From a virus: a stretch of DNA of 64,000 nt. Under the pieces are notes generated by a model that searched no databases, had not been told where the DNA came from, and saw only the letters and a program-made list of their open reading frames with translations. Positions 26,547 to 64,000 of the stretch are shown one piece after another; position 1 is the first letter of the stretch; each line of letters begins with the position of its first letter. The position numbers were made by a program, and so were the translations under genes. The DNA lies in the IMG/VR virus record IMGVR_UViG_3300025424_000296, positions 32,001 through 96,000 of that record; one strand, 5' to 3'.

Positions 26547-27296
26547 TTATTGGTTAGAAAGCATTCTTTTGGATGTTATGGGTATATTTGCATTTATATC
26601 CCATTTTACACCATTATATTTTAACCAATCTGTATAAATTTTATGCGGATCAAAGGTATATAAATTCAAATCTGCAAATCTATTTAAATTATTATAAATG
26701 TCTGCCCAAATATCCATACTCTGGCTATTACCACTCACCCATAAATCATGTAAAATCGCATACTTATCTTTGTAAAATCCGTTATATGTCAAAATGTCGG
26801 GGTTTAGTATGGTAAGATCAATATCTTGTTCAAATAATACATCCCACCTTGTAGCAATTACGTAATCGTATTTTTTCCCAGTGAAAACTTCTTGTTGTTT
26901 TTTAAGGGTTATTACTGCACTTCTAGAATGCATTAAGCCAAAAACACCAAGAGGTCTATGTTTAGCAAACGGCATACCAAATCTTTTAAATTGTGTGGTT
27001 AATTCTTTAAATCTATTGATGTGCAAATTAAAATTATCTAGATGTAAACCTACTGGTTTGGTACAGTTAATCATACCCTCGATGACTCCCAGATCTACAG
27101 GCGAACTTGATAAATGATACCCGGGGTGATAAAGAGAAGACATACATTGCTCTGGCTCTATTTGAAGTCCGATACTATCAGTCCATGTCATAGCAAATAT
27201 ATCAGGATTATATGGTTTGATTAACTTCTGGTAAATTCCTTCCCAACACAACTCAAAAGTTCTAAGATGGCCGTATAAACAAAGAGCAATATTCAT
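26547..27296 (-). CDS. Putative glycosyltransferase-like protein
   Basis: MNIALCLYGHLRTF...YDYVIATRWDV...HDLW.SG. Confidence 0.55.
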   Translation of the reverse strand: MNIALCLYGHLRTFELCWEGIYQKLIKPYNPDIFAMTWTDSIGLQIEPEQCMSSLYHPGYHLSSSPVDLGVIEGMINCTKPVGLHLDNFNLHINRFKELTTQFKRFGMPFAKHRPLGVFGLMHSRSAVITLKKQQEVFTGKKYDYVIATRWDVLFEQDIDLTILNPDILTYNGFYKDKYAILHDLWVSGNSQSMDIWADIYNNLNRFADLNLYTFDPHKIYTDWLKYNGVKWDINANIPITSKRMLSNQ

Positions 27297-31458: not shown

Positions 31459-31463
31459 CCTTA

Positions 31464-32234: not shown

Positions 32235-32305
32235 TTATATTTTTATTTTGCATTATTATACCATATTATGGTAAAATTTTCAAGTTATCTAATAAGGAAA
32301 AATAA

Positions 32306-33529: not shown

Positions 33530-33601
33530 TCAAGTGTACTAGACAACATCTTCTTTTTCAGTTATAATGAAAAATTATCAACTGAAAAAGAAGGAAATGT
33601 T

Positions 33602-34093: not shown

Positions 34094-34153
34094 TATAAAA
34101 TAACCAATATGGTGGGACTTGATTTTCCCACCATATTGCTCTATAATAGCATG

Positions 34154-34952: not shown

Positions 34953-35015
34953 GTTTTAAACTCGGTGGATTATAAATATGGTGTGTTTATAATAAACACT
35001 GTAAGGAGAATTACC

Positions 35016-35261: not shown

Positions 35262-35332
35262 CAAAACGCTAAAAAACACTATATTTAAACTTTAGCATTG
35301 GCATGATGATGAGTCTGTAAGACCTGTGTTAT

Positions 35333-35407
35333 GTTCCGGTGCCAGAGTAGTTATGGAGCAGACTGCAAATCTGTTTTAGGTGGGTGCAAGTCCCTCCCGG
35401 AACTCCA
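35333..35407 (+). tRNA. tRNA-Cys(GCA)
   Basis: GTTCCGG/CCGGAAC acceptor, GCAGA-CTGCAAA-TCTGT anticodon arm, U73, CCA. Confidence 0.85.
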
Positions 35408-35625: not shown

Positions 35626-35649
35626 TACACGGTGATAATGGAGAGTAAC

Positions 35650-41367: not shown

Positions 41368-43650
41368 TTAAATTTCTCCGTTATTTACTGTATCCAGTAA
41401 TTCAAACTCTTCTGTATCTGACAGCTCAGCTGTTTCCATATATTCGAATTCTAATTGATCATCGTTAACATGTACTGTTACAGCACCGCCATTTTTAAGA
41501 CGTCCAAATAGCATTTCTTTGGCAAGAGGTTTCTTGATATTTTCCTGTATAACTCTGGCTAGTGGCCTTGCACCCATGTTGCGATCAAAACCTCTTTTGA
41601 TAAGCCATTCTTTAGTAACTGAATCTAGTACAATATTAACTCTCTTTTTGCTACTGAGTTCGTTCATTTGATTTATAAATTTGTCAATGATTTTATTCAT
41701 GTTTTCTTTAGATAGCTTGTTGAATCTCACAATACCATCCAGTCTGTTACGGAATTCTGGTTTAAAGTAACTGTTGATAGCATTAATGTCTTCGTCTGTG
41801 CGCTCTGTACTACCAAATCCTATAGCAGATCGTTCCATATCTGCTGCTCCGAGATTACTGGTAAAGATAACGATAGCATGTCTAGCACTTGCAACTTTAC
41901 CATTTTGGCCAGTTATGATACCACTGTCCATGACTTGTAAGAAAATGTTATAAACATCCGGATGTGCTTTTTCAATTTCGTCAAATAGTAATACACAGTG
42001 CGGATTTGTTTCTAGTGTATTAATCAATATGCCAGATCCAGCAGACCCGTCACTATAGCCCACGTAGCCCGGAGGAGATCCAATCAGTTTGCTAACAGCA
42101 TGTCTTTCTTGGAACTCACTCATATCAAATCGCACAAATTCTACACCCAGACTTTTGGACAGTTGTTTTGCTAATTCTGTTTTACCTACCCCACTAGGAC
42201 CGCTGAATAAAAAAGATCCAACAGTTTTATCTGCTTCTCTGAGTCCACTTCTGCTGAGCCAGATCATGCTTGACAGTGTTTCTACTGCGTCATCTTGTCC
42301 AAATATGGCACCTTTGAGATCTGCATCAAGTTTTGCAAGCTTATCAGCTTCGGAAGTTTTAATTGTAGCCACTGGAATTTTAGCTACTCGACCAACTTCA
42401 GCTTCAATTTCTTTTTTGGTAATATTTTTAATTCTTTCATATTCTGGCCTAATTTTTTGCCAAGCAGCAGAACTATCAATTATATCAATGGCTTTATCTG
42501 GTAAGAATTTATCATGAATATGCTTAGCTGTTAACTCTACAGCAGCATCAAGTGCTGCGATATCATAGGTCACATCGTGATATTCTTCATAGTATTTGGC
42601 AACACCTCTGAGAATACGTTTAGCATCTTCGATACTGGGTTCATGAATATTTAATTTTTGAAAACGACGTACAAGAGCACGATCTTTTTCAAAATGTTTA
42701 CGGTATTCATCCATTGTTGTTGAGCCAATACAATGAATTTCACCTCTACTCAGAGGCGGCTTCAACATGTTAGCTGCATCAAGTGACCCATTGCCACCGC
42801 CGGCATTACCGGCGCCCATGATCATGTGAATTTCGTCAATGAACATAACAGCGTCTGGTAGACTACAAAATGCCTTAATAATGGCTTTCATACGTTCTTC
42901 AAAATCGCCGCGGAATTTAGTACCAGCTACTAGTGTACTGATATCCACACTCCAAATGGTTTTATTTAATAATGTTTCTGGAACTGATTTTTCTGTAATC
43001 CTTTTGGCAAGACCTTCGATTATCTGAGTCTTACCTACGCCTGCATCGCCAGTCATTACTACATTATGTTTGTTACGACGTGCTAAAATCTGCGTAATCT
43101 GTTCAACTTCTCGTTCACGTCCAATAAGCGGATCAATTTTTCCGTTTTCAGCCTTGCGATTGAGGTTAATGCAGAAGGTTTCTAGTGTTTCTATTGCTTC
43201 GGTTAGATCCATCTTTTCAGAATCTGCAGCTTGACTTTTATTGATAATATCTATGATAGCTTCTTTACTAGGGCCGTGCTTGTCTAGAAAGTATGCTGCA
43301 TGACTATCTGTTGTTCCATATATAGCCAGTAATAAATCCACCGGTCCAACTTCGTTTCGACCACTGAATATGCTCTGAGTTTTGGCTTTCTTAACCACAT
43401 TCATTAATAATTGAGTGTGTCTTGGACTAGAAGAATTATCTTGTACTATCACATGATTATCCGGCTCATCTAAATAATCAAATGTGTCTTTGGCAACTGC
43501 TTCTGGATTACCATTGGCTTTTTTCATTAATTTAACTAATTCTTGATCATCTAATAATGCAGCCAGTAGATGTTCAAGTGTCACCAATTCATGATGACGA
43601 GCAGAAGCTAATTGATAACTATGCTGGACAGTCTGCTCAAAGGTTTTCAT
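41368..43650 (-). CDS. clpA: ATP-dependent Clp protease ATP-binding subunit ClpA
   Basis: ClpN domain; GDAGVGKT and GPSGVGKT Walker A motifs; GTKFRGDFEER; RFDMSEF; PPGYVG; no ClpB M-domain. Confidence 0.93.
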   Translation of the reverse strand: MKTFEQTVQHSYQLASARHHELVTLEHLLAALLDDQELVKLMKKANGNPEAVAKDTFDYLDEPDNHVIVQDNSSSPRHTQLLMNVVKKAKTQSIFSGRNEVGPVDLLLAIYGTTDSHAAYFLDKHGPSKEAIIDIINKSQAADSEKMDLTEAIETLETFCINLNRKAENGKIDPLIGREREVEQITQILARRNKHNVVMTGDAGVGKTQIIEGLAKRITEKSVPETLLNKTIWSVDISTLVAGTKFRGDFEERMKAIIKAFCSLPDAVMFIDEIHMIMGAGNAGGGNGSLDAANMLKPPLSRGEIHCIGSTTMDEYRKHFEKDRALVRRFQKLNIHEPSIEDAKRILRGVAKYYEEYHDVTYDIAALDAAVELTAKHIHDKFLPDKAIDIIDSSAAWQKIRPEYERIKNITKKEIEAEVGRVAKIPVATIKTSEADKLAKLDADLKGAIFGQDDAVETLSSMIWLSRSGLREADKTVGSFLFSGPSGVGKTELAKQLSKSLGVEFVRFDMSEFQERHAVSKLIGSPPGYVGYSDGSAGSGILINTLETNPHCVLLFDEIEKAHPDVYNIFLQVMDSGIITGQNGKVASARHAIVIFTSNLGAADMERSAIGFGSTERTDEDINAINSYFKPEFRNRLDGIVRFNKLSKENMNKIIDKFINQMNELSSKKRVNIVLDSVTKEWLIKRGFDRNMGARPLARVIQENIKKPLAKEMLFGRLKNGGAVTVHVNDDQLEFEYMETAELSDTEEFELLDTVNNGEI

Positions 43651-44126
43651 TTTGATCTCCTAGCCCTTTTTCTAGCTAAATGTAGTGTAACTTTACCCAC
43701 TCGATCTGTAAAGACAATTCCTTGACAGTGATCCCACTCATGTAGAAAGCATCTTGCTTCTAGCTCCATTAGTGTTTCAGTGTGTTCATATCCTGTTTCA
43801 TCAATCCAGTTTGCAACAATGCTAAATGGTCTCGATATTGGCAATTTTAACCTAGGAAAACTAAGACAACCTTCTTCCTCAGTTGACATTTCATCGGTTG
43901 TGCTTAATACCGTTGGATTAATACAAGTACGTTTCTTACCCATACAATTCATGACAAACATGTTAAGGTCTAATCCAACTTGAGGAGCAGCTAAACCAAT
44001 GCCATCCCCTTTGTTCATAACTCTGTGCATTTCTTCGAAAGTTTCTAGTAACGTTGGTATTTGCTCTAGCTCTACCAACTTAGCCGCTGTTCTTAATATG
44101 GGATCGTAGCTGTTTGTGAGTTTCAT
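43647..44126 (-). CDS. def: Peptide deformylase
   Basis: GIGLAAPQVG, EGCLS, HEWDH. Confidence 0.95.
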   Translation of the reverse strand: MKLTNSYDPILRTAAKLVELEQIPTLLETFEEMHRVMNKGDGIGLAAPQVGLDLNMFVMNCMGKKRTCINPTVLSTTDEMSTEEEGCLSFPRLKLPISRPFSIVANWIDETGYEHTETLMELEARCFLHEWDHCQGIVFTDRVGKVTLHLARKRARRSK

Positions 44127-44157
44127 GTTATTACTTTGCGGCTAAAATGCAATCTTG

Positions 44158-45033
44158 TCAAGTGGTTCTTTGATCAACAAGTTCTCTTATTTTTTGTTTG
44201 AGAGAGTTGTCTAATCCAGTTGGCACAGTGATTTTAACTGTAACAATACAATCTCCGCGAGCATGTCCGTTCCCTCTCAAAGGCATTCCGCGCCCGCTAA
44301 TTTTTAAATTGGTATCAGGTTGTGTACCCTCTGGTATGGTTAATCTGACTTTTTGACCATCTATACATGTTAAAGTGTGATCACATCCAATAATAGCTGA
44401 CAATGCATCGACAGTTATTTCTGTATGAAGATTTGCTCCGTTCCTGCGGAAAACAGCGTGATTTAAAATCAAAACATTTATGTATAAATCCCCAGGAGGG
44501 GCATTTGGTATAGATCTATCACCGTGTCCCTGGTAACGTATACGGGTACCATTTTCAATACCAGCTGGTATTTCCACGTTCAAATTGTAATTTTGTCCGT
44601 TAACTGTAAATTGTATCGGAGTGTGTTTGCCTGTAAATGCTTCTTCCAGTGTTAGATGTAGTTCAAATGTAAAATCTTTGTTACGTGCTTGACGACCGGG
44701 ATGTCCAAATCCGTGTTGATTAAAAAATTGATTAATTATGTCTTCCATACCACCACCGCCAAATTCAAAATTAAAGTTGAATCCGCCGTGTTGGAATGGA
44801 TTTCCACCTGGATGCCCGCCGCCGAATTGACGCATTTGGTCATATCTGGCTCTAGCCTCAGGATCGCCTATTTCAGAATAAGCAGTGCTTATTTTTTTAA
44901 AGCGTTCTTCAGCAGCAGCATTACCCTGATTTTTGTCAGGGTGAAACTGCATTGCTAGCTTGCGATAAGCTGATTTTATTTCTTCTTGTGAGGCGTTTTC
45001 TGCAACGCCGAGAGTGCTATAATGATTTTCCAT
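44158..45033 (-). CDS. dnaJ: DnaJ/CbpA-type co-chaperone (no Zn finger)
   Basis: J domain with HPD, G/F region, C-terminal domains. Confidence 0.92.
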   Translation of the reverse strand: MENHYSTLGVAENASQEEIKSAYRKLAMQFHPDKNQGNAAAEERFKKISTAYSEIGDPEARARYDQMRQFGGGHPGGNPFQHGGFNFNFEFGGGGMEDIINQFFNQHGFGHPGRQARNKDFTFELHLTLEEAFTGKHTPIQFTVNGQNYNLNVEIPAGIENGTRIRYQGHGDRSIPNAPPGDLYINVLILNHAVFRRNGANLHTEITVDALSAIIGCDHTLTCIDGQKVRLTIPEGTQPDTNLKISGRGMPLRGNGHARGDCIVTVKITVPTGLDNSLKQKIRELVDQRTT

Positions 45034-45120
45034 AGTAAAATAATTATAATATCTTTAACCACACTGTCAATGGTTGATAGATCAAAAGTAAATATTATTA
45101 CAAAAATTTTTGAGACTGCT

Positions 45121-45855
45121 ATGACTGATAACACCGATAATACTGATAACGACCTTGATACACAACTAAAAGTTGAAATTAAACCAACTATGTTGCAGAT
45201 TTTAGTAGAATATCTTACTAAAACCAGTCCGGGTTTATTGATATTACACTTATTTTATATCATGATGGTATGTGCATCATTGAGTTTTTCATATGTAATG
45301 GCTTTCCATTGGGCCACAGTTGTTCAAATCTATACAGATGCACACGATGTTAAAGGTTTTAGCAAAAATCTTAAAATGAGTGTGGAAAATGACACTAAGA
45401 TTGCAGAATTGTTACACGAAACATTAGACAAAACTGGTGGAATTAGAGCATATGTTTATAGATATCATAATGGTTTAGCTGCTATCAGCAGTGTTCCATT
45501 CTTTTTTCAAACCAATACACATGAAATTATAGCACCAGGTGGCACCAGACTGTTACCATATGAACAAAGAATTCCAGCTAGTTTTAATATTCTTATCAAT
45601 AATCAATTTATTAAAAATCAATGTGCTATAGTCACTAATACTGATGAGGACAAAGGTAGTAACTATTATTATTTTTGGACCAGTAGAGGAGCAAAATCAT
45701 TTATACGTTGTCCAATCTATTTAGATAACGGTGATTTATTCGGATTTGTCGGTGTCGACTATGCAACCAACGGCACTCAACTTAAAAAAGATGCTCAGGA
45801 CTTGGAAGAAGTTGCTACACAAATAGGCAATATATTTGAAACTGGTAGAAAATAA
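45121..45855 (+). CDS. Membrane protein with GAF-like C-terminal domain, T4 holin T-like architecture
   Basis: One TM, then YRYHNG...CPIY...GFVGVDY; TAAATA at 45089. Confidence 0.55.
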   Translation: MTDNTDNTDNDLDTQLKVEIKPTMLQILVEYLTKTSPGLLILHLFYIMMVCASLSFSYVMAFHWATVVQIYTDAHDVKGFSKNLKMSVENDTKIAELLHETLDKTGGIRAYVYRYHNGLAAISSVPFFFQTNTHEIIAPGGTRLLPYEQRIPASFNILINNQFIKNQCAIVTNTDEDKGSNYYYFWTSRGAKSFIRCPIYLDNGDLFGFVGVDYATNGTQLKKDAQDLEEVATQIGNIFETGRK

Positions 45856-45892
45856 TTTGTTATTGTTAAGCATATTATCATATGCTTAACAA

Positions 45893-46942
45893 ATGGATAT
45901 AATAATACCGTGTGCTAGTACTGACACAAACTTTCCAAATATGAGACCTAATTACTTGTTAGCTGACTATCTCAGCCGACGAATGTTAGAGTTGGTTGTA
46001 GAACCATATCTATCTAAATATCGTATACATGTTGTAATAACACAACAAGCTCAGGACTCTTATAATGTTGTCAAGGAGTTTGACACTATATTTGGTGATC
46101 AAGTTAATGTAGTAATACTGTCAAAATCTACATCAGGGTCTGCTGAGTCAGCTTATCAAGCATTAATAAAGTTAAATTTAGAATCAACTGCATTTATGAT
46201 CCGTGAATGTACTGGTATGTTTGCACATGATACAGTATTATCTGGTAATATTATTCATGTTGGAAGTCTAAATCACAGCATAAATTTAACAAATATCACC
46301 AATAAAGATTATGTAAAGGCTAATGGACAGGGTTTCATTAGTTGTATAGCAGAAAAAGAGGTAATTGGTGATTTATTCTGTGCAGGGGGTTATCAATTTG
46401 AGTCTGCCAGAAAATACAAATTAGCTTACACCAATCTTTTAAAATCTAATGTAGATAAAATTTCGATTAAATCAATTGTTGATTACTATAGTGTGTCTTG
46501 GGGGGAAGATTTTTCAGTAAATAAAGTCAGCGACTTTGTTGATCTAAGTACTATACAAGATTGGGAAGCTTTTAACGATCGTCCTACAATATTTTGTGAC
46601 ATAGATGGAACTATTATACACAATCAAACACCTTATGGCGATAATAACTACGGTGCAACGCCCACAGTGTTAGAAAAGAATGTACAAACATTGAGACACT
46701 TTTTAATAAGAGGCAGTCAGATCATATTTACTACGTCAAGAACCACCAAGTGGTATGCTGAGACTAGACAAATGCTAGATAGTTTGGGTTTTCACAACTG
46801 CCAGTTGATTATGGATTTACATCATGCAAGAAGAATATTAATAAATGATCATGCACTTACTAACCCTTATCCTAGTGCTGTTGCAATTAATATCAGACGC
46901 AATGATGACTCGTTGGATCAAATGATTGGCAAGAGGAACTAA
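45893..46942 (+). CDS. Nucleotidyltransferase-like domain fused to a HAD phosphatase
   Basis: MDIIIPCA...FPNMRP N-terminus; FCDIDGT, FTTSR, RILIND HAD motifs. Confidence 0.75.
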   Translation: MDIIIPCASTDTNFPNMRPNYLLADYLSRRMLELVVEPYLSKYRIHVVITQQAQDSYNVVKEFDTIFGDQVNVVILSKSTSGSAESAYQALIKLNLESTAFMIRECTGMFAHDTVLSGNIIHVGSLNHSINLTNITNKDYVKANGQGFISCIAEKEVIGDLFCAGGYQFESARKYKLAYTNLLKSNVDKISIKSIVDYYSVSWGEDFSVNKVSDFVDLSTIQDWEAFNDRPTIFCDIDGTIIHNQTPYGDNNYGATPTVLEKNVQTLRHFLIRGSQIIFTTSRTTKWYAETRQMLDSLGFHNCQLIMDLHHARRILINDHALTNPYPSAVAINIRRNDDSLDQMIGKRN

Positions 46943-46944
46943 TT

Positions 46945-47667
46945 ATGCAGATTCTTATCCCAATGGCCGGTGCTGGCAGCAGATTTGCAAAAGTAGGATA
47001 TTCAAAACCAAAGCCATTAATAGACGTTGATGGTCTTCCGATGATCTCTAGAGTTATTGATAATCTTGGACCAGACAATGATTATATTTTCATAGTACAA
47101 AAATCGGTTCTAGATGATTATGAAAAAGATTTAATTTCAGCTACTGATTTTGCAAAATCTAGTAAATTTTTAATTGCTAATGGATTAACAGAGGGTGCTG
47201 CACAAACCTGCTTACTAGCCAAAGACTCGTTGGATATGGATTCTCCATTAATGATTGCCAATTGTGATCAAATTATGGATTGGAATTATGATCATTTTTA
47301 CAAATGGTTTGACACAACATTTAGTGACGGATCAATAATCACTTTCTCAAGCATAGAACCTAACAATAGTTATGTAACTCTGAGAGAGGACGGATATATA
47401 TTAGAAGCACAAGAAAAAATAGTTATATCAGACATAGCTACCACAGGTGTTTATATATGGCGACAAGCACGAGATTTTATGGTATCAGCTGAGGAAATGA
47501 TATCAAAAAATATCAGATATAATAATGAATTTTATGTATGTCCTGTTTATAATCAAATTGTAGAGAAGGGCAAGTTAATTAACGTTTATCATATTAAAAG
47601 TCACTGGCCGATCGGAACACCAGAAGATTTAGAAATATATTTGAAGCATAGACATGAAAGAATATAG
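46945..47667 (+). CDS. Sugar-phosphate nucleotidyltransferase
   Basis: IPMAGAGSRF...PKPLI, TEGAA, NCDQ, NNEFYVCP, GTPEDL. Confidence 0.88.
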   Translation: MQILIPMAGAGSRFAKVGYSKPKPLIDVDGLPMISRVIDNLGPDNDYIFIVQKSVLDDYEKDLISATDFAKSSKFLIANGLTEGAAQTCLLAKDSLDMDSPLMIANCDQIMDWNYDHFYKWFDTTFSDGSIITFSSIEPNNSYVTLREDGYILEAQEKIVISDIATTGVYIWRQARDFMVSAEEMISKNIRYNNEFYVCPVYNQIVEKGKLINVYHIKSHWPIGTPEDLEIYLKHRHERI

Positions 47668-47983
47668 TGTAGAACAATTTAAATTAGGATGGTTTATCGG
47701 AGACTTCGAACCCAGTGTCCTCCGAACATCTGACTTTGAAGTCTGTTATAGAATCCAGAAAAAAGGCGAGATACATAAACCACATGTTCATCCCATTGGC
47801 ACAGAGTATAACTATCTTATTCGAGGCGAAATGACAGTAAATGGTAAAAAGTTTATAGGACCTGTTATATTTGTTATAGAACCCGGGGAAGCTGTTTATC
47901 CAACGATGGACACAGACTGCGAGTTAATTATAGTTAAGACTCCTAGCTTAGTTACAGATAAGATATTGGTAGAAGACCTATGA
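47654..47983 (+). CDS. Cupin-fold protein
   Basis: GWFIGDFEP, HVH...E, VKTPS...DK. Confidence 0.75.
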   Translation: MKEYSVEQFKLGWFIGDFEPSVLRTSDFEVCYRIQKKGEIHKPHVHPIGTEYNYLIRGEMTVNGKKFIGPVIFVIEPGEAVYPTMDTDCELIIVKTPSLVTDKILVEDL

Positions 47984-49113
47984 ATATTATAATTAATACA
48001 AAAGATCTTAAAAAGTATTTTTGGGTAAAGTATTGGGTATCATCAAAAACGGATCTCAATACCGCAGCACATGAAATAGCCATTGGACAGAGTATAGGTA
48101 ACCCAAACAAACGTAGTCTCTGGGAAACTGATACAATGATCAACGACTATTGTAATAAGATATTAGATACAGGTAACCTTGACCAGCCACAGGGCTATGT
48201 AGAAATAGGTTTTCCTTATGAACTATTAGATTGGCAAGAAGATGGTATAAGTCAACTGCTTTGTGTAATCATGGGCGGGCAAATGGATATTGACAACATA
48301 ACCAGTTGTCGTGCAACTGATATTGAATTTGATGATAGTGTAATTGCTCCCTATTTTCTCGGTCCGCAGTTTGGTATTAGTGGTATAAGAAATCGGGTAA
48401 AAGTCCATAACAAACCCCTATTTGGCGGTATTATTAAACCAAAAACTGGTATTACACCCAACCAGTTACTAGACATGACCAAAGAGTTAGTAGAGGGCGG
48501 TGTAAACTTTATTAAGGAAGATGAGATACTGGGAAATCCTAGTGTTTGTAGACTACGGGATCGTGTTCCACTTATATCAAAATATTTACAGGATAAAAAT
48601 GTAATCTACTGCTACTGTATAAATAGTGATCCTTTATATGTATTAGACCGAGCTAAATTTGTTGCAGAAAATGGCGGCAACGGTGTTCATGTAAATGTAT
48701 GGAGCGGTCTAGGTGTTTATAAAAGTATTAGAGATTTAGATCTACCACTTTTCATACACTATCAAAAAAGTGGTGATAGAACTTTTACAAATAGTTTGCA
48801 TGACTTTAACATAAGCTGGGATATATTGTGTAAACTTGCAGGCATGTGCGGAGTTGACTTTATACATGCCGGAATGTGGGGAGGATATTTGAGTAATACA
48901 GACGACGAGCTACATCGCACATTAGGCATACTTAGAAGTCTCGGTGTAATGCCTGCATTAAGTTGCGGAATGCATGCGGGATTAATAGCACCTATCACTG
49001 AAAGATTTGGTACAGATTGGATGGCAAACGTAGGCGGTGCAATACATGCAGATCCCGGTGGTACTCGTGCTGGTAGTTTACGAATAAAACATGCCATTGA
49101 GAATCTAAAATGA
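47980..49113 (+). CDS. RuBisCO-like protein (form IV)
   Basis: IIKPKTG, GGVNFIKEDE, DFIHAG, PALSCG, NVGGAIH; lacks the H294 and K334 equivalents. Confidence 0.9.
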   Translation: MNIIINTKDLKKYFWVKYWVSSKTDLNTAAHEIAIGQSIGNPNKRSLWETDTMINDYCNKILDTGNLDQPQGYVEIGFPYELLDWQEDGISQLLCVIMGGQMDIDNITSCRATDIEFDDSVIAPYFLGPQFGISGIRNRVKVHNKPLFGGIIKPKTGITPNQLLDMTKELVEGGVNFIKEDEILGNPSVCRLRDRVPLISKYLQDKNVIYCYCINSDPLYVLDRAKFVAENGGNGVHVNVWSGLGVYKSIRDLDLPLFIHYQKSGDRTFTNSLHDFNISWDILCKLAGMCGVDFIHAGMWGGYLSNTDDELHRTLGILRSLGVMPALSCGMHAGLIAPITERFGTDWMANVGGAIHADPGGTRAGSLRIKHAIENLK

Positions 49114-49580
49114 AATTAATTTCACACCGAGGTTTGATAAATGGGCCAGATTTGCAATTGGAAAATACCGAGGATGCTATAACACAATGTTTGTTAAAAG
49201 GTCTTGAAGTAGAAGTAGATGTGTGGTTCAACGAAGATAGTAGCACTTGGTGGTTAGGTCACGATTTTCCTCAGTATAAAACTTCAAGAGATTTCGTATT
49301 CCAACTTGGGTTATGGATACACGCTAAAAATTTTGCAGCAGCTAAAGAATTAAATTCGTGTTGGAAGTCTGGCAATGTACATCTCAATTATTTTTGGCAT
49401 GAGAATGACCATAGAACATTGACAAGTCTCGGATATTGGTGGACATTTCCGCAACAAGAACTCGGTCCTACTAGTGTAGCAGTAATGCCAGAAAGATATA
49501 CGCTATTAACCGATTTACATTTATGTGTTACATGGAATTGTTATGGTGTATGCAGTGATTATATTAATAAACTGATATAA
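49110..49580 (+). CDS. Glycerophosphodiester phosphodiesterase-like protein
   Basis: ISHRG, EN, VEVDVW, LGHD, WIHAKN, GVCSD. Confidence 0.78.
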   Translation: MKLISHRGLINGPDLQLENTEDAITQCLLKGLEVEVDVWFNEDSSTWWLGHDFPQYKTSRDFVFQLGLWIHAKNFAAAKELNSCWKSGNVHLNYFWHENDHRTLTSLGYWWTFPQQELGPTSVAVMPERYTLLTDLHLCVTWNCYGVCSDYINKLI

Positions 49581-49659
49581 TAAAATTTATCAATATTATT
49601 GATAAAAATTGAATAATTACCGTATAATTAAAGCATAATTTATTGGAGACTTAAATTCC

Positions 49660-50904
49660 ATGTCAAAAATTGATTTGTCTACATATGAACAAGATCCTAG
49701 TAATCCTTCAGAAATATTGAATATAGCTGGGCACTGTGCTGAGCAGGGACAACATGATTCTGCCATGTTATTTGCTGAATCAGTTTATAGGATGAATAAT
49801 CTGTCAAATGAAGTAAAGGTACAAGCATTAGAACGTTTTGCAATATCCGGTTTCTATAGTAAAATACCTTCTAGAAAACTATTAGGTAAACAGGCCTGCG
49901 AATTATTAGCCATGAACAAAGATATTAACTGGAATACCAGATATGTAGCTGGTCAAAATAGCACTTGGTATGCAAGTTCATCTAATGAATTATTTTCCAA
50001 CACTGTATTGAAGCATTTAGACTTTACACCGCCAGACGATTATCTTCCATTAAACCCATCTATATACAGGTGGGGTAATCAGTTATGGATGATACAACGT
50101 ACGGTGAATTATGTTATAACTCCAAGCGGTCATTATGACATGCGCGGTGACACCGCCATAAGAACTCGTAATTGGTTGTTGAAATTAAATTCTGATCTAA
50201 CGGTACATAGTGCTAGAGAAATATTACCGCCAGTTGATCTTCCAGAACCACTTTATAATTTAGTAATTGGTTTTGAAGACAATAGACTATTTGTGTGGCA
50301 AGATCAGCTATGGTGTACGTCAACTGTCAGGGAATTAAACCAACCGGGTAATTGCGAAATAGTACTATCAAGAATAGATGATACTGAAGACGGTAAGTGT
50401 CGATATAGTAACTGGAGAGTTATACATCCAAAGGGTGTGGAATTTCAACATCAAAAAAATTGGATGCCTGTAGTAATAAATCAAGATCTAAGATTTATAT
50501 ATAGCAGTGATCCTGTTAGAATCATTGATGACCAAGGTGAAATAGTTATGCAGCACGAAGCTGTTGATGCCACTGATAGTTTCAGAGGCGGGTCACAAGC
50601 TATTAGATTTAATAATGGGTGGTTGGCTATAATACATGAAAGCCATATGATGCCCGATCAACGTCGTAGATACATGCATCGATTTGTATGGTATAATGAA
50701 AATTTTGATTTAGCAGCTTATACGCCGGCATTTTATATAGCCAAACTTGGTATTGAATTTGCAGCAGGAATAGCAGAACATCCACTTACTAACAAAATAA
50801 TTGTAAGCTTTGGATTAGCAGACAACGAAAGCTGGTTAGCTGAATTTGAACCAGTTTCGATACTTGCTGCATTAAAATATATCAAAAGAAAAGAATCAAA
50901 CTGA
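49660..50904 (+). CDS. Beta-propeller glycosidase/glycosyltransferase-like protein
   Basis: NPSI, FEDNRLF, QKNWMP, FRGGSQ, IEFAAG; helical N-terminus. Confidence 0.6.
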   Translation: MSKIDLSTYEQDPSNPSEILNIAGHCAEQGQHDSAMLFAESVYRMNNLSNEVKVQALERFAISGFYSKIPSRKLLGKQACELLAMNKDINWNTRYVAGQNSTWYASSSNELFSNTVLKHLDFTPPDDYLPLNPSIYRWGNQLWMIQRTVNYVITPSGHYDMRGDTAIRTRNWLLKLNSDLTVHSAREILPPVDLPEPLYNLVIGFEDNRLFVWQDQLWCTSTVRELNQPGNCEIVLSRIDDTEDGKCRYSNWRVIHPKGVEFQHQKNWMPVVINQDLRFIYSSDPVRIIDDQGEIVMQHEAVDATDSFRGGSQAIRFNNGWLAIIHESHMMPDQRRRYMHRFVWYNENFDLAAYTPAFYIAKLGIEFAAGIAEHPLTNKIIVSFGLADNESWLAEFEPVSILAALKYIKRKESN

Positions 50905-50905
50905 T

Positions 50906-52822
50906 ATGAATGACATAGAAACAAAGTCTCCATTAGAAGATCCTCAGGTACTATTAGGGATATGTCAATATTTCGATTCAAAAGATAAACACAATGATGT
51001 TATGAAAATCTATGAACAGTCAATGCCTATACCTCAGTTGGATAGCGTAAAAACAGACTTTCTTCGATTAGCAGCGGTCAGTGGATTTTACAGTGATTTA
51101 GACTACTATAAAAAACTAGGTAAAGAAGCTAGCGAACAGTTAATGTCTAGCCGTAAAGTTTCTGCCACTGATAGAGACTTTGCAAGGCGTAACGGTACTT
51201 GGTACAATAATCTAATCAAAGATCTCATTCCGTCTGCCATTTTAAAAAAGATTGAATTCAATTGTCCAGTTGGATATCGTTCAACTACTCCGAGTATCAC
51301 ATCCCATGGTGGTAAAATATGGATGTTACAACGGTCAATAAATCTACACGATGAGAATTATAATTTTGTTGATCCGGATGCAATATGGTGGTGTACAAAA
51401 AATTACATACTACAACTAGATAATGATTTGAATGTTGTATATAGTGAAGAAATTAAACCGCCTGCTGATATGCAATTACCTGTTAGAGGTTTTGAAGATG
51501 CAAGACTGTTTTTTCTAGGCAACGAACTTTGGTGTTCGTGCTCATCATTAGATTTCAACGAAAACGGTGTATCTCAAATGCTTACAACTAGAATAGACGG
51601 TATAGGAACAGGAGATTGCAGATTCACTAACTATCAAGTAATGAAACCCAATTTTGGTTATGGTCAAGTTGAAAAAAATTGGATGCCGTTTGTCGAAAAC
51701 AATTTACCATATTTCATATACAATTGTGATCCTGTGATCATAGTAGATAATAACGGTCACCTGATTGATTCTCGAGCAACACATATTGCTGCTGAAAGTT
51801 ATAGGGGCGGTACTCAATTATTGGAATTCGATGATGGGTATCTGGCATTGATACATGAATCACTGGACATGGATTGGGGTGTTCGTCGTTATATGCATAG
51901 ATTTGTTTGGTTTAATAGAAGTTTACAACTGACAAAGTATAGCAATTATTTTTCAATTGATGAAATAACATTAGAAGTTAGTGTTGAATTTGCTGCTGGT
52001 ATAACTGTTCATCCAATAACAGATAAATTACTGATAAGTTTTGGTAAAAATGAGTTAGAGACATGGATTGTAACAGTTGATCCAGATGATGTAAGAAATG
52101 TATTGAAGCCGGCTGGTTTAGCCTGTGAAAGATTGCCATTTGATGCAGAAACATTAAAACTATTGGAATATGAAACCAACAGAGCACTTAAAGATACCGC
52201 TACGGTAGAAAAATTTACTAATTTATTAAAAAAATATAACCTGCCATTACACGTAACACCGCAGAAAAATTGGGATAACTTGATTGCAATATATCATACA
52301 GTGCTAACCACTGACGTTGATACTCCCATAATGGATATAGCAGGAACAGCTGACTCGGCATATCTTCCAAGCTTGTATAAATTTGGTTACAGAGATTTAA
52401 CCAGTATTAACCTGTCAGAACATGAACCTGTATTAAAAGATGGTGTTGTATATCAATACGGGGACTGTACTAACACAGGTTTCCCTGATGAATACTTTGG
52501 ATTTATATCTTGTCTAAGTGTTATCGAACATGGTGTAGATATTGATGGATTCTTCAGAGAATCACATAGAATACTAAAGAAAAAAGGTAGATTGTTTGTT
52601 AGTACAGATTACTGGCAGCATCCTGTCAATACGTTTGGCAAAATGGCATATTGGAACCCAGTTGTAATATTTGATGCAGCAGGAATAAGTGACATGGTTG
52701 CTAAAGCAGAAGCACACGGATTTGAATTAACTGGACCAGCGGATTTAACTTGTTATGACAAGGCAGTACACTGGGACGAAATGGACTACACATTTATTAA
52801 TTTGTTGTTCAGCAAACGGTAA
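50906..52822 (+). CDS. Beta-propeller paralogue fused to a SAM methyltransferase domain
   Basis: FEDARLF, EKNWMP, YRGGTQ; C-terminal CLSVIEH, RILKKKGRLFVSTDY. Confidence 0.65.
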   Translation: MNDIETKSPLEDPQVLLGICQYFDSKDKHNDVMKIYEQSMPIPQLDSVKTDFLRLAAVSGFYSDLDYYKKLGKEASEQLMSSRKVSATDRDFARRNGTWYNNLIKDLIPSAILKKIEFNCPVGYRSTTPSITSHGGKIWMLQRSINLHDENYNFVDPDAIWWCTKNYILQLDNDLNVVYSEEIKPPADMQLPVRGFEDARLFFLGNELWCSCSSLDFNENGVSQMLTTRIDGIGTGDCRFTNYQVMKPNFGYGQVEKNWMPFVENNLPYFIYNCDPVIIVDNNGHLIDSRATHIAAESYRGGTQLLEFDDGYLALIHESLDMDWGVRRYMHRFVWFNRSLQLTKYSNYFSIDEITLEVSVEFAAGITVHPITDKLLISFGKNELETWIVTVDPDDVRNVLKPAGLACERLPFDAETLKLLEYETNRALKDTATVEKFTNLLKKYNLPLHVTPQKNWDNLIAIYHTVLTTDVDTPIMDIAGTADSAYLPSLYKFGYRDLTSINLSEHEPVLKDGVVYQYGDCTNTGFPDEYFGFISCLSVIEHGVDIDGFFRESHRILKKKGRLFVSTDYWQHPVNTFGKMAYWNPVVIFDAAGISDMVAKAEAHGFELTGPADLTCYDKAVHWDEMDYTFINLLFSKR

Positions 52823-52838
52823 TTTAATGGAGACTTAG

Positions 52839-53918
52839 ATGAGTACAAAGAAATTAAGAATCGGTGTTTACTGCCCTGCTAAAAATGAATTAAAGCATGT
52901 AGAACCCTGGTATGAAAGTTGCAGGAATGCTGATGTTGTAGTATGTGCTGATACGGGTAGCACAGACGGTACAAAAGAAAAGATGTTGGAACTTGGAGTA
53001 AAAGTAACCGATTTAAGAATACTACCGTGGCGGTTTGACGACGCATTTAATTTTGCAATGGCATTGTTACCTGACGATATTGATGTTTGCATACGATTAG
53101 ATTTGGATGAACGTCTGCAGCCTGGTTGGCGGGCTGCACTTGAAGCAGCATGGACCCCTGAGACTACTCGTTTACGTTATCCATATGTTTGGAATTGGAA
53201 CCCAGATGGTTCTCCCGGACGTCAATGGTACGGAGACCGTATTCATCATAGAAATGGTTTTCGTTGGATGGGAGCAACTCATGAGGGGCTGTGTTCTAGA
53301 ATACATGAAGTACAGACATTTACGGACGATGTTAAAATATATCAATATCCAGATGCCAAGGATAAGAAGCATGATCTTCCTCTGTTATTAGAAGCAACTA
53401 AAGAGTATCCAACTGATGCAAGATTGCGGGCATATCTGGGTAGAGAATATTTTTATAGAGGAGAAAATGACAAGGCAGTTGAAACTTATAAAGAGTTTCT
53501 TGGCATGAGCTGGGACAAGATTGAACGAGGTCAGGCTATGATTAACCTATCAAATGCAGATCCAAAAAATAAAGTATTTTGGTTAAAGATGGCTATTATA
53601 GAAACACCCGGTCATAGAGAACCATTAACAAATCTATCTCAGCATTATTATAATAATGAGGATTGGACCAAGTGTTACAAGTATGCTATGGATGCCTTAA
53701 AGATCACAAAACATCCTATGGATTATACTTGCACACCAGAAGCCTGGGGATACTTGCCGCATGATTTAGCCAGTATTTCTGCTTGGCATCTTGGTTTATA
53801 TAAAGAAAGTATGGAACAGGCAAAATTAGCACTAGAACGTAGTCCAAATGACAAACGATTAGAGAATAATCTTAAGATTGTGGAAGAATTCATGAATGAA
53901 CGATTAACTAACGAGTAA
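52839..53918 (+). CDS. GT2 glycosyltransferase with TPR repeats
   Basis: KNE, DTGSTDGT, PWRFD, LDLDE, HE; TPR-like C-terminus. Confidence 0.85.
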   Translation: MSTKKLRIGVYCPAKNELKHVEPWYESCRNADVVVCADTGSTDGTKEKMLELGVKVTDLRILPWRFDDAFNFAMALLPDDIDVCIRLDLDERLQPGWRAALEAAWTPETTRLRYPYVWNWNPDGSPGRQWYGDRIHHRNGFRWMGATHEGLCSRIHEVQTFTDDVKIYQYPDAKDKKHDLPLLLEATKEYPTDARLRAYLGREYFYRGENDKAVETYKEFLGMSWDKIERGQAMINLSNADPKNKVFWLKMAIIETPGHREPLTNLSQHYYNNEDWTKCYKYAMDALKITKHPMDYTCTPEAWGYLPHDLASISAWHLGLYKESMEQAKLALERSPNDKRLENNLKIVEEFMNERLTNE

Positions 53919-53948
53919 TAGGTGATTAAACTGTTAATAAATAAAAGT

Positions 53949-54158
53949 ATGAAATTGTTTGAGTTATTCGTTGACTACGATAAACCTATTGTAATTGAAG
54001 CAGGTGGTGTTGGCCGCATAGTACCAGGTATCAACACCACATCTGACGTCGGGCCAAATGAAGTTGCCAAACAAGCAAAGAAGTTTGGTAATAAAGTTAC
54101 CCGAGATGGCCGTCCCCCCATTGCCAGACCTGATGGCAAAAATGTTAACAAAAAATGA
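53949..54158 (+). CDS. Small late protein
   Basis: TAAATA 5 nt before ATG; MKLFEL...EAGGVG.I..G.NTT.DV. Confidence 0.65.
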   Translation: MKLFELFVDYDKPIVIEAGGVGRIVPGINTTSDVGPNEVAKQAKKFGNKVTRDGRPPIARPDGKNVNKK

Positions 54159-54505
54159 CACATTGGTTAGTACTATGGAAAACATGGTTAGAAGAAGAGA
54201 TTGAAACACCATGGCCTTTTGTAGTAGTTGATCGTACTGCTGATTTCAAAAACAGAGAAACAAGTGTTCGAGTTCCCCAAGAATTGGTAGATTCTATATT
54301 TTTATCTTTTGATGTAGATAAAGTTCATAAATTTCAATCAGAACATGTATATGCACTTGTGTTATCGTGTGTGCTAGAAGCAGCTGATCAACCAGCTGCT
54401 GTGCAGTTGGTACAATCGGTATTTCCGGATGCCGAGGTTACTAACTGTGCCCTAATACCTCTGGAAATGTTATCAACTGTTATGGAAAACTTTTCACAAA
54501 AATAG
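54155..54505 (+). CDS. Hypothetical protein
   Basis: ATGA overlap with the upstream gene. Confidence 0.65.
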   Translation: MTHWLVLWKTWLEEEIETPWPFVVVDRTADFKNRETSVRVPQELVDSIFLSFDVDKVHKFQSEHVYALVLSCVLEAADQPAAVQLVQSVFPDAEVTNCALIPLEMLSTVMENFSQK

Positions 54506-54528
54506 GCACTGAATTTCCTCAGTGCCTA
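54503..54528. terminator. Hairpin between convergent genes
   Basis: TAGGCACTGA...TCAGTGCCTA. Confidence 0.55.

Positions 54529-60044: not shown

Positions 60045-64000
<3,956 letters not shown>

What the first reader, a model, noticed from the sequence alone, without database searches (positions are those of the whole stretch)
45893..49580. Phage RuBisCO-like protein in a nucleotide-sugar-type operon
Seen: five tightly packed or overlapping genes encoding a nucleotidyltransferase-like/HAD fusion, a nucleotidyltransferase, a cupin, an RLP and a GDPD-like enzyme. The RLP keeps KPK (K175/K177), KxDE (K201/D203/E204) and H327, but has Q/K at H294/R295 and Y at K334. Established: form IV RLPs do not fix CO2; characterised ones act in methionine salvage or in catabolism of sugar acids and branched sugars such as apiose. 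Inference: a biosynthetic RLP making an unusual sugar or acyl-phosphate donor, activated as an NDP derivative for the adjacent glycosyltransferases. I cannot assign this role to a characterised RLP clade.
Basis: partly seen in the sequence, partly recalled or inferred. Interest (0 to 1): 0.72.

Follow-up and report, generated by a model that had tools for sequence, protein, structure and literature searches.

The report
Phage RuBisCO-like sugar-activation cassette
A very large phage carries an intact RuBisCO relative that cannot fix CO2 and is wired into a gene cassette with a sugar-activating enzyme, a small cupin and a miniature phosphodiesterase, which points to an untested glycan-building job for the RuBisCO fold.

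Summary
Five coupled genes at 45893-49580 encode a variant-nucleotidyltransferase/HAD fusion, a nucleotidyltransferase (NT), a cupin, a RuBisCO-like protein (RLP) and a 156-aa trimmed GDPD-type phosphodiesterase.

The RLP belongs to the divergent phage/Beckwithbacteria "IV-like" clade reported by Jaffe et al. 2019, whose function is unknown. It does not group with MtnW (AU test p=0.009).

Context is strongly conserved. With at least 4 kb of flank, NT lies within 4 kb of the RLP in 66/67 viral and 29/30 cellular loci. RLP-NT, NT-cupin and RLP-NT-cupin fusions exist.

Points I did not find in the earlier notes of this scan:
- The HAD fusion is not conserved, and its N-terminal half is a recurrent NT paralog without the GxGxR motif.
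- NT plus mini-GDPD is the wider core; only 8 of 57 mini-GDPD loci carry an RLP, and cultured cyanophages have the cassette without one.
- Legionellaceae pair RLP-NT with LicD.
- A DUF7796-like putative transferase travels with the cassette.

Together these suggest a nucleotide-activated phospho-sugar or polyol attached through a phosphodiester. The chemistry is inferred, not shown.

This scan has found the same cassette on other genomes many times.

The parts
45893..46942 (+). 349-aa fusion of a variant nucleotidyltransferase-like domain (NT') and a HAD phosphatase-like domain.
   Evidence: Residues 2-188 match the NT profile at E 1.7e-13. PCASTDTNF stands in place of GxGxR, as in the NT' paralogs of SAR11 and DPANN archaea. 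The HAD part has a DIDGT motif and Pfam hits Acid_phosphat_B and HAD_PNKP just under cut-off. The fusion is not conserved next to the RLP: 2 of 80 viral loci.
46945..47667 (+). 240-aa sugar-phosphate nucleotidyltransferase (NT), the near-constant partner of the RLP.
   Evidence: PF00483 scores 28.3 against a cut-off of 21.2. It matches phrog_3980 at 7.7e-62 and PDB 4evw at 5e-17, and has the AGAGSRF motif. NT lies beside the RLP in 78/80 viral and 44/48 cellular loci. It is fused to the RLP or to the cupin elsewhere.
47654..47983 (+). 109-aa monocupin.
   Evidence: It matches phrog_24762 at 6.4e-27. Invariant residues G12, W13, H44, H46 and E51 include cupin motif 1. The AF2 model has pLDDT 96.6. 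Best folds are 3h8u and the Thermococcus cupin-type phosphomannose isomerases 7zvy and 7zvm. It is present in 70/80 viral and 14/48 cellular loci.
47980..49113 (+). 377-aa RuBisCO-like protein of the 'IV-like' phage/CPR/DPANN/SAR11 clade.
   Evidence: PF00016 at 7.8e-29. Best PDB matches are form III RuBisCOs at 1.5e-31. It is below all NCBIfam cut-offs. The clade is separated with SH-aLRT 100, and the AU test against MtnW gives p 0.0087.
49110..49580 (+). 156-aa trimmed GDPD-type phosphodiesterase (mini-GDPD).
   Evidence: It matches phrog_34507 at 2.6e-18. Invariant or near-invariant H6, R7, G8, E18, N19, E35, D37, H51 and D52. The profile matches GDPD 7e0v at 1.2e-4. AF2 pLDDT is 95.8. Foldseek's best matches are GDPDs.
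49660..50904 (+). 414-aa protein, glycosyltransferase/TPR-like by predicted structure. Context gene, specific to this phage.
   Evidence: No Pfam or PHROG hit. The ESM Atlas structure search gives TM 0.82 to viral GT2+TPR clusters. It is absent from the other RLP loci.
50906..52822 (+). 638-aa protein with a C-terminal class I methyltransferase domain. Context gene.
   Evidence: Methyltransf_11 at 2.1e-8 over residues 501-565. Not found in other RLP loci.
52839..53918 (+). 359-aa GT2-like glycosyltransferase with TPR repeats.
   Evidence: It matches phrog_13126 (beta-1,4-glycosyltransferase) at 2.9e-84 and has a weak Glycos_transf_2 hit plus TPR hits. It is syntenic in L005, L006, L009 and L010 at 66-68% identity.
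45022..45855 (+). 277-aa gene of unknown function at the head of the + strand block.
   Evidence: Only a weak GAF hit. It is conserved just upstream of the NT in the four syntenic megaphage contigs L005, L006, L009 and L010 at 47-54% identity.
54503..54528 (.). Two-way terminator-like hairpin that closes the + strand block.
   Evidence: This is a pattern match only.
26547..27296 (-). DUF7796-like 'capsular polysaccharide biosynthesis' family protein (called the A4 family here), a frequent cassette partner that lies elsewhere in this genome.
   Evidence: It matches the A4-family profile at E 3.3e-37, and the ESM Atlas neighbours agree. The family occurs in 44/80 viral and 14/48 cellular RLP loci. 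A second, weaker copy lies at 9696-10358 on the - strand (E 5.4e-12).

Best explanation
The 377-aa protein is an intact, non-carboxylating member of the divergent 'IV-like' RuBisCO-like clade found in phages, CPR bacteria, DPANN archaea, SAR11 and a few other bacteria.

It keeps the Mg2+/carbamate enolisation machinery (K175, K177, K201, D203, E204, H327 and the P1 phosphate site). It has lost the residues needed for CO2 addition and C-C cleavage (K334 is Y, H294 is Q, N123 is G, and E60 appears lost). It most likely enolises, and so isomerises or epimerises, a phosphorylated keto-sugar.

It works with the neighbouring nucleotidyltransferase, which converts a phospho-sugar or phospho-polyol into a nucleotide-activated donor. 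The cupin probably acts as a small sugar(-phosphate) isomerase.

The mini-GDPD, the DUF7796-like putative transferases and, in Legionellaceae, LicD suggest that the unit ends up on a surface or virion glycan through a phosphodiester. The mini-GDPD would handle that bond.

In this phage an NT'-HAD fusion, a GT/TPR-like protein, a methyltransferase protein and a GT2-TPR enzyme complete a local glycan island.

Shown here: gene identities, residue pattern, clade placement, co-occurrence and fusions. Inferred: the direction of the pathway, the substrate, the nucleotide used and the phosphodiester outcome.
For: - RLP identity and residues.
- It is separate from form III, MtnW and OiaX-like clades.
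- NT is beside the RLP in 78/80 viral and 44/48 cellular loci, in varied order and orientation. With at least 4 kb of flank on both sides the counts are 66/67 and 29/30.
- Fusions: NT-cupin in 18 viral loci; RLP-NT in at least 24 clusters and one RLP-NT-cupin protein, P0125; mini-GDPD fused to the DUF7796-like family in L046; NT' fused to a mini-GDPD N-terminal part in L103.
- The surrounding islands are glycan genes: Gmd in 37 loci, DegT in 21, plus methyltransferases, GT2 and GT10; GT17, GT61 and RmlD-like genes in SAR11.
- LicD (3e-43) lies next to RLP-NT in all four Legionellaceae loci, which lack mini-GDPD, cupin and the DUF7796-like family.
- RLP-less cultured cyanophages keep NT, mini-GDPD and the DUF7796-like family. 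S-SM2 and Bellamy also keep the cupin and carry a class II aldolase-family enzyme in the cassette. That is consistent with the RLP being an exchangeable enediolate-forming front end.
Against: - No substrate, product or nucleotide is known, and nothing here is biochemical.
- Only 8 of 57 well-flanked mini-GDPD loci hold an RLP, so the cassette works without it, and its step could lie before or after activation.
- The LicD link rests on one bacterial family.
- The mini-GDPD could be a hydrolase that supplies substrate or edits the product, rather than part of a transfer step.
- The NT is nearest to sugar-1-phosphate NTs of the RmlA/GlmU/GMPP type. That fits a classic NDP-sugar as well as a CDP-alcohol.
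- The NT'-HAD fusion, p414 and the methyltransferase protein are not conserved with the RLP.
- The target glycan in a phage is unknown.
Confidence: 0.6

Rival explanations
1. The RLP acts after activation. It takes a nucleotide-linked keto-sugar, with the diphosphate in the retained P1 phosphate site, and isomerises or epimerises it. The RLP would then be a tailoring enzyme of a nucleotide sugar rather than a maker of the precursor.
For: RLP-NT and RLP-NT-cupin fusions exist. NT plus mini-GDPD cassettes work without an RLP, as expected for an optional tailoring step. The P1-site glycines and S379 are kept, while the P2 site is altered (R295 to K).
Against: No RuBisCO-superfamily enzyme is known to accept a nucleotide-linked substrate (established knowledge). 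Fusions do not give the order of steps. In S-SM2 and Bellamy the cassette holds a class II aldolase-family enzyme, a family that acts on free sugar phosphates.
Confidence: 0.2
2. The cassette makes a nucleotide-activated small molecule for something other than a glycan, for example a modification of phage DNA or proteins, or a metabolite used in host takeover.
For: Phages use nucleotide-sugar enzymes for DNA hypermodification (established knowledge). The window holds many unusual metabolic genes, including a Trp halogenase, a GlpD/GlpO-like oxidoreductase and an acyl-CoA dehydrogenase.
Against: The same RLP-NT pair sits in cellular genomes among glycosyltransferases, RmlD-like genes and LicD. 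Viral loci are rich in Gmd, DegT, GT2 and GT10.
Confidence: 0.1
3. The RLP is a catabolic or salvage enzyme of a known type, such as an MtnW-type enolase of methionine salvage (HAD and cupin recalling MtnX and MtnD) or an apiose or acid-sugar RLP. Under this reading the link to NT would be incidental.
For: HAD plus RLP plus cupin resembles the Bacillus MtnX/MtnW/MtnD trio (established knowledge). There are weak matches to the MtnW and OiaX models.
Against: Scores are far below cut-off: 124 against 409, 93 against 514, and 111 against 700. The AU test rejects a clade with MtnW. The HAD is not conserved. The cupin is 109 aa and is fused to the NT in 18 loci. NT adjacency is near-universal.
Confidence: 0.04
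4. The RLP is a non-catalytic scaffold or regulatory subunit of the nucleotidyltransferase.
For: It is fused to NT in many proteins, and several RuBisCO catalytic residues are lost.
Against: K175, K177, K201, D203, E204, H327, S379, G381, G403 and G404 are invariant across 35 diverse members at 51-75% identity to the window protein. That is the pattern of a working active site.
Confidence: 0.05

Closest known systems
'Form IV-like' RuBisCO-related proteins of phages and Beckwithbacteria (Jaffe, Castelle, Dupont, Banfield 2019, Mol Biol Evol; PMC6389311)
   Same: It is a divergent RLP on large myovirus-type phage contigs and clusters with a Beckwithbacteria protein. The window protein is 49% identical to a Beckwithbacteria MAG protein and shares a clade with it at SH-aLRT 100. 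Key residues are only partly conserved, as the paper reports.
   Different: The paper gives no function or gene context for the phage proteins. Here the clade is tied to a nucleotidyltransferase, cupin and mini-GDPD cassette and extended to SAR11, DPANN archaea, Verrucomicrobia, Legionella and Azospirillum. I did not have the paper's own sequences to compare.
MtnW/YkrW 2,3-diketo-5-methylthiopentyl-1-phosphate enolase (methionine salvage RLP)
   Same: Same fold. It also performs enolisation without carboxylation and works with a HAD phosphatase and a cupin enzyme in Bacillus (established knowledge).
   Different: It scores 124 against a cut-off of 409 (NF007095) and 93 against 514 (TIGR03332). 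It is in a separate clade, and the AU test gives p 0.0087. Its partners are NT, mini-GDPD and glycan genes, not mtnK, mtnA or mtnB.
Form III RuBisCO (Thermococcus kodakarensis, PDB 3kdo/3a13/1geh)
   Same: These are the best sequence matches among solved structures (1.5e-31), and the KPK, KxDE and H327 residues are the same.
   Different: K334 is Y, H294 is Q, R295 is K and N123 is G. The protein is about 65 residues shorter. It scores 160 against a TIGR03326 cut-off of 497.
Bifunctional type II phosphomannose isomerase / GDP-mannose pyrophosphorylase (NT domain plus C-terminal cupin, e.g. AlgA/ManC)
   Same: The NT-cupin fusions in 18 related loci have the same domain order. The cupin model resembles the Thermococcus cupin-type phosphomannose isomerases.
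   Different: The cupin is only about 105 aa, has low sequence identity (17-20%) and lacks a conserved second-motif histidine. No PMI activity has been tested.
LicD / CDP-alcohol phosphotransferase systems (phosphocholine, ribitol-phosphate and glycerol-phosphate decoration)
   Same: In Legionellaceae a LicD gene sits beside RLP-NT. The general logic is an NT that activates a phospho-alcohol, followed by transfer that forms a phosphodiester.
   Different: There is no LicD in the window or in any viral locus. A mini-GDPD and a DUF7796-like family stand there instead. The activated unit is unknown.
RLP-less glycan cassettes of cultured cyanomyoviruses (S-SM2, Bellamy, S-CAM9, B23)
   Same: They share the NT (as HAD-NT or NT-NT fusions), the mini-GDPD and the DUF7796-like family. 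S-SM2 and Bellamy also carry the cupin family.
   Different: They have no RLP. S-SM2 and Bellamy carry a class II aldolase-family gene in the cassette instead.

Membership tests
RuBisCO large-subunit superfamily | Matches the catalytic-domain and N-terminal-domain models above the curated cut-offs. | tested here: met
   PF00016 scores 101.3 against 30.1. PF02788 scores 23.0 against 20.7.
Bona fide RuBisCO (forms I-III) | Complete carboxylase residue set, including N123, H294, R295 and K334. | tested here: not met
   N123 is G, H294 is Q, R295 is K and K334 is Y. TIGR03326 scores 160 against 497, and NF003252 scores 153 against 438.
MtnW/YkrW enolase | Equivalog model score above cut-off, and phylogenetic grouping with MtnW. 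| tested here: not met
   Scores are 124 against 409 and 93 against 514. The clade is separate. The AU test rejects the union (log-likelihood difference 73, p 0.0087), though the group was named after the tree had been seen.
OiaX 3-oxo-isoapionate-4-phosphate decarboxylase RLP | Equivalog model score above cut-off. | tested here: not met
   It scores 111 against 700. The OiaX-like clade (P0261) lies elsewhere in the tree.
'IV-like' phage/Beckwithbacteria RLP clade (Jaffe et al. 2019) | Clusters with phage-contig RLPs and a Beckwithbacteria RLP, apart from other RLPs. | tested here: met
   It falls in a 33-row clade with SH-aLRT 100 that holds IMG/VR phage contigs and a Beckwithbacteria MAG protein. 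The paper's own sequences were not on hand.
Sugar-phosphate nucleotidyltransferase (PF00483) | Model above cut-off, and an N-terminal G-x-G-[ST]-R motif. | tested here: met
   For the 240-aa protein PF00483 scores 28.3 against 21.2 and the motif reads AGAGSRF. The N-terminal half of the 349-aa protein matches the NT profile but lacks the motif, so the motif criterion is not met for that domain.
GDPD (glycerophosphodiester phosphodiesterase) | Catalytic HRG, EN, ExD and HD motifs. | tested here: met
   These residues are invariant or nearly so in 57 sequences. They align to GDPD 7e0v.
GDPD (glycerophosphodiester phosphodiesterase) | Full TIM barrel of about 220-250 aa that matches the Pfam GDPD model. 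| tested here: not met
   The protein is only 156 aa, with no Pfam or NCBIfam hit. Foldseek TM by query is 0.42-0.56 to GDPDs. It is a trimmed relative.
Cupin superfamily | Motif 1, G(X)5HXH(X)3-4E(X)6G, and a double-stranded beta-helix fold. | tested here: met
   H44, H46 and E51 are invariant. The AF2 model has cupin fold matches at probability 1.00. The Pfam Cupin_2 hit is below cut-off (17.6 against 27.2).
HAD phosphatase superfamily | Motif I DxDGT and a family model above cut-off. | tested here: inconclusive
   DIDGT is present at residues 236-240. The best Pfam hits are just under cut-off: Acid_phosphat_B at 25.4 against 27.

The most novel reading that the evidence does not exclude
A whole branch of the RuBisCO superfamily is biosynthetic. 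Its members enolise or isomerise a phosphorylated (or even nucleotide-linked) keto-sugar to make the precursor of a nucleotide-activated unit. That unit is then attached to surface or virion glycans through a phosphodiester, in phages, SAR11, Legionella, CPR bacteria and DPANN archaea. This would be the first anabolic, glycan-building role for the RuBisCO fold. It would also define a new sugar or polyol-phosphate decoration.
Probability: 0.5. Interest if true: 0.78.

Novelty: new variant of a known kind. Interest (0 to 1): 0.6.

Why it matters
All characterised RuBisCO-like proteins work in salvage or catabolism (methionine salvage, apiose and acid-sugar breakdown). A branch devoted to building an activated glycan unit would widen the known chemistry of the RuBisCO fold. 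It would also bear on how that fold diversified.

The clade is common in abundant marine and freshwater phages and in SAR11. Its product may therefore be a widespread surface decoration that affects phage-host recognition.

Cultured carriers exist (Legionella drozanskii, L. maceachernii, L. nautarum, Azospirillum oleiclasticum). RLP-less sister cassettes exist in cultured cyanophages. The question can therefore be tested at the bench now.

Tried and rejected
- The RLP has no match in the GenBank phage collection at E 1e-5.
- Plasmids hold only distant RLPs of at most 33% identity, of the OiaX and other types.
- Literature searches found no functional study of this clade. Nothing was found on DUF7796 or DUF8374. 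The 2025 rubisco survey preprint does not mention phages.
- The GOS 2007 paper reports unclassified RuBisCO homologues that may be the same clade, but I could not check this.
- The sigma-70 promoter scan was at chance level: 53 sites found against 49 expected.
- The mini-GDPD alignment was too diverse to seed a collection scan, so the single protein was used.
- The 370-aa S-SM2 protein is not a hidden RLP, and the 103-aa 'phosphoheptose isomerase' is not this cupin.
- No class II aldolase homologue was found in the RLP loci or the mini-GDPD-seeded loci, so that replacement is confined to S-SM2 and Bellamy-type phages.
- The AU test on all 116 rows did not finish in 864 s, so it was run on 39 rows.
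- The methionine-salvage reading (HAD, RLP and cupin as MtnX, MtnW and MtnD) was considered and rejected on scores, on the tree and on the non-conservation of the HAD.
The RLP itself and the NT' domain were therefore not folded. LicD-like genes could be sought in the other loci only by BLAST with the L. drozanskii LicD, not with a profile.

Full report
**What is there**

The window is bases 32001-96000 of a 113-kb IMG/VR virus record rated 28% complete. It is a tailed phage. It has an RIIA homologue (phrog_612, 1.4e-119), a homing endonuclease and a virion structural protein, and five tRNAs. A ClpA-like ATPase is closest to those of 470-490-kb jumbo phages.

On the + strand, ORFs run from 45022 to 54505 and end at a two-way hairpin. 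The five ORFs of the finding are real and tightly coupled: a 2-nt gap, then overlaps of 14, 4 and 4 nt.

**Gene identities**

- The 349-aa protein is a fusion.
  - Residues 2-188 match a profile of the cassette's nucleotidyltransferases (E 1.7e-13). They carry PCASTDTNF where the G-x-G-x-R motif should be.
  - Residues 228-307 are HAD-like, with a DIDGT motif and Pfam hits just below cut-off.
- The 240-aa protein is a sugar-phosphate nucleotidyltransferase, called NT below. Evidence: PF00483 above cut-off, PDB 4evw at 5e-17, RmlA-long and archaeal GlmU models as the best NCBIfam hits, and the motif AGAGSRF.
- The 109-aa protein is a cupin.
  - Forty-two relatives share invariant residues including H44, H46 and E51, which form cupin motif 1.
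  - The profile finds cupins in the PDB.
  - The AF2 model (pLDDT 96.6) matches small cupins, among them the Thermococcus cupin-type phosphomannose isomerases.
- The 156-aa protein is a trimmed GDPD-type phosphodiesterase.
  - The HRG, EN, ExD and HD motifs are invariant or nearly so in 57 relatives.
  - They align to a Pyrococcus GDPD (E 1.2e-4).
  - The AF2 model (pLDDT 95.8) finds GDPDs first, at probability 0.99 and TM by query 0.42-0.56.
  - It is about 90 residues shorter than a full GDPD barrel and hits no Pfam model.

**The RLP**

PF00016 matches at 7.8e-29. The best solved relatives are form III RuBisCOs (1.5e-31), then an Alicyclobacillus RLP and MtnW.

In the alignment to T. kodakarensis RuBisCO:
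- Kept: K175-P-K177, K201-E-D203-E204, H327, S379, G381 and G403/G404.
- Changed: H294 to Q, R295 to K, K334 to Y, N123 to G.
- E60 also appears to be lost, read by eye from the N-terminal alignment.

All of these positions are invariant in 35 clade members that are 51-75% identical to the window protein. By the established RuBisCO mechanism this pattern keeps metal-assisted enolisation. It removes CO2 addition and C2-C3 cleavage. That step is inference.

**Clade placement**

- Every named NCBIfam model scores far below its cut-off: rubisco_III 160 against 497, MtnW 124 against 409 and 93 against 514, OiaX 111 against 700.
- An exhaustive search of 1.8 billion cluster representatives gave 52 hits at or below 1e-30.
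- In a tree of 116 full-length rows, the window protein lies in a 33-row clade split from the rest at SH-aLRT 100. The clade holds phage contigs, Pelagibacter, Beckwithbacteria, Woesearchaeota, Verrucomicrobia, Legionella, Azospirillum and Turneriella.
- Labelled outgroup clades include a true form III protein (P0242), MtnW (P0254) and OiaX-like proteins (P0261).
- On a 39-row subset, the best tree that forces the clade together with MtnW is 73 log-likelihood units worse (p-AU 0.0087). The group was named after the tree had been seen.
- This is the 'IV-like' phage and Beckwithbacteria clade of Jaffe et al. 2019 (PMC6389311), which was left without a function.

**Context across genomes**

- IMG/VR holds 143 contigs with a relative at 51-62% identity. 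GTDB species genomes hold 48, including SAR11, CPR bacteria, DPANN archaea, Legionella drozanskii, L. maceachernii, L. nautarum and Azospirillum oleiclasticum.
- By profile search of all loci:
  - NT is in the same locus as the RLP in 78/80 viral and 44/48 cellular loci.
  - The mini-GDPD is in 69/80 and 29/48.
  - The cupin is in 70/80 and 14/48.
- Restricted to loci with at least 4 kb on both sides, and to within 4 kb of the RLP:
  - NT is in 66/67 viral and 29/30 cellular loci.
  - The cupin is in 57/67 and 11/30.
  - The mini-GDPD is in 51/67 and 17/30.
- Order and orientation vary, which argues for functional linkage rather than inherited synteny.
- Fusions confirm the link:
  - NT-cupin in 18 viral loci.
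  - RLP-NT in at least 24 protein clusters, and one RLP-NT-cupin protein, P0125.
- The islands around the cassette hold GDP-mannose 4,6-dehydratase (37 loci), DegT aminotransferases (21 loci), methyltransferases, GT2, GT10 and UDP-glucose dehydrogenase-like genes. In SAR11 they hold GT17, GT61 and RmlD-like genes.
- In the window the genes downstream are:
  - a GT/TPR-like protein;
  - a protein with a methyltransferase domain;
  - a GT2-TPR enzyme (phrog_13126, 2.9e-84).

1. The NT'-HAD fusion, p414 and the methyltransferase protein are not part of the conserved set. Four syntenic megaphage contigs (L005, L006, L009, L010) have Clp-PDF-DnaJ-g277-NT-cupin-RLP-miniGDPD-GT-GT without them.
2. 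The N-terminal half of the fusion belongs to a recurrent second NT paralog, NT'. Its motifs read AGPNxxF or AGKDKNFE instead of GxGxR. It is found beside the RLP in SAR11 and DPANN archaea. In cyanophages it appears as NT-NT double-domain proteins.
3. Starting from the mini-GDPD instead of the RLP gives a different picture.
   - Of 57 well-flanked viral loci, 53 have NT, 26 have a DUF7796-like family, 23 have the cupin, and only 8 have an RLP.
   - The commonest neighbour is a 455-aa protein, apparently the HAD-NT fusion type, in 67 of 80 loci. Its identity is inferred from size and position, by comparison with the HAD-NT proteins seen.
   - Cultured cyanophages (S-CAM9, B23, S-SM2, Bellamy) carry NT, mini-GDPD and the DUF7796-like family without any RLP; S-SM2 and Bellamy also carry the cupin.
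   - S-SM2 and Bellamy have a class II aldolase-family gene in the cassette (fuculose-1-phosphate aldolase-like, 1.9e-9). This is another metal-dependent enzyme family that acts on ketose phosphates.
   - So NT plus mini-GDPD is the general core, and the RLP (usually with the cupin) is an exchangeable part.
4. All four Legionellaceae loci lack mini-GDPD, cupin and the DUF7796-like family but have a LicD gene next to RLP-NT (PF04991, 3e-43). LicD-family enzymes transfer phospho-alcohols from CDP-activated donors (established knowledge).
5. The DUF7796-like family ('capsular polysaccharide biosynthesis protein') occurs in 44/80 viral and 14/48 cellular RLP loci. It is often adjacent to the cassette and is fused to the mini-GDPD once. 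This genome has two copies elsewhere.

**Best explanation**

The RLP enolises a phosphorylated keto-sugar and so isomerises or epimerises it. The NT turns a phospho-sugar or phospho-polyol into a nucleotide-activated donor. The cupin probably acts as a small isomerase, by analogy with the NT-cupin enzymes that combine phosphomannose isomerase and GDP-mannose pyrophosphorylase.

The mini-GDPD, the DUF7796-like family and LicD all point to a unit attached through a phosphodiester rather than a simple glycoside.

Not known: whether the RLP acts before or after activation, which nucleotide is used, and what the substrate is. I put 0.6 on the pathway-level reading and 0.2 on the variant in which the RLP tailors a nucleotide-linked sugar.

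Catabolic or MtnW-like roles, a scaffold role and a non-glycan target are less likely, for the reasons given under the rival explanations.

**Novelty**

The clade was published in 2019 without a function. I found no paper that links it to nucleotide activation. This scan has met the same cassette on many other genomes. Those notes agree on the main reading, and I re-tested their leads here (fusions, SAR11 and Legionella context, mini-phosphodiesterase).

I did not find the following in those notes:
- the asymmetry between RLP-seeded and mini-GDPD-seeded loci;
- the NT' paralog;
- LicD in Legionellaceae;
- the DUF7796-like partner family;
- the RLP-less cassettes of cultured cyanophages.

**Limits**

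- Nothing here is biochemical.

Noticed in passing
window 41368-45033 (- strand): A chaperone and protein-maturation block: a ClpA/ClpB-like double AAA+ ATPase (760 aa, phrog_4871 at 8.9e-250), a peptide deformylase (159 aa) and a DnaJ with its C-terminal domain (291 aa). It is syntenic with the cassette in four other megaphage contigs (L005, L006, L009, L010).
   Followed up: partly
window 11718-13673 (-), 38848-40764 (-), 60096-63998 (+, open end): Three large proteins with collagen triple-helix repeats (Pfam Collagen, 5.8e-34, 9.3e-16 and 6.4e-13). They may be fibre proteins and possible acceptors for the phage's glycan genes.
   Followed up: no
window 21527-22981, 28176-29735, 35632-37347 (+): Unusual metabolic genes for a phage: a GlpD/GlpO-like FAD oxidoreductase (DAO plus DAO_C), a tryptophan halogenase-family protein (6.7e-92) and an acyl-CoA dehydrogenase with all four domains.
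   Followed up: no
window 15265-20022 (+): A 1585-aa ORF with no Pfam or PHROG match.
   Followed up: no
window 23272-35407: Five tRNA genes (Asn-GTT, Glu-TTC, Ile-GAT, Thr-AGT, Cys-GCA) scattered over 12 kb.
   Followed up: no
window 26547-27296 (-) and 9696-10358 (-): Two paralogs of the DUF7796-like 'capsular polysaccharide biosynthesis' family. In other genomes this family sits next to the mini-GDPD. By predicted structure it resembles a Campylobacterota capsular biosynthesis protein family (DUF8374) and sulfotransferase-like viral proteins.
   Followed up: partly
L050, L056, L065, L067, L068, L072, L077 (IMG/VR contigs labelled GVMAG): Contigs binned as giant-virus MAGs carry the same RLP, NT-cupin and mini-GDPD cassette. 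I did not check whether they are true Nucleocytoviricota or mis-binned phage contigs.
   Followed up: no
L133 (Synechococcus phage S-SM2) 1382-6997; L134 (phage Bellamy) 1163-9586: In these cultured cyanophages the mini-GDPD is annotated 'hypothetical protein' and the cupin family is annotated 'cysteine dioxygenase'. The NT-NT double-domain protein is called 'dN-sugar pyrophosphorylase' in S-SM2 and 'hypothetical protein' in Bellamy. The annotations hide a shared cassette.
   Followed up: partly
window 88-1059 and 7520-9685 (+): A homing endonuclease (phrog_655, 1.6e-49) and an RIIA homologue (1.4e-119), which tie this megaphage to T4-like lineages.
   Followed up: no
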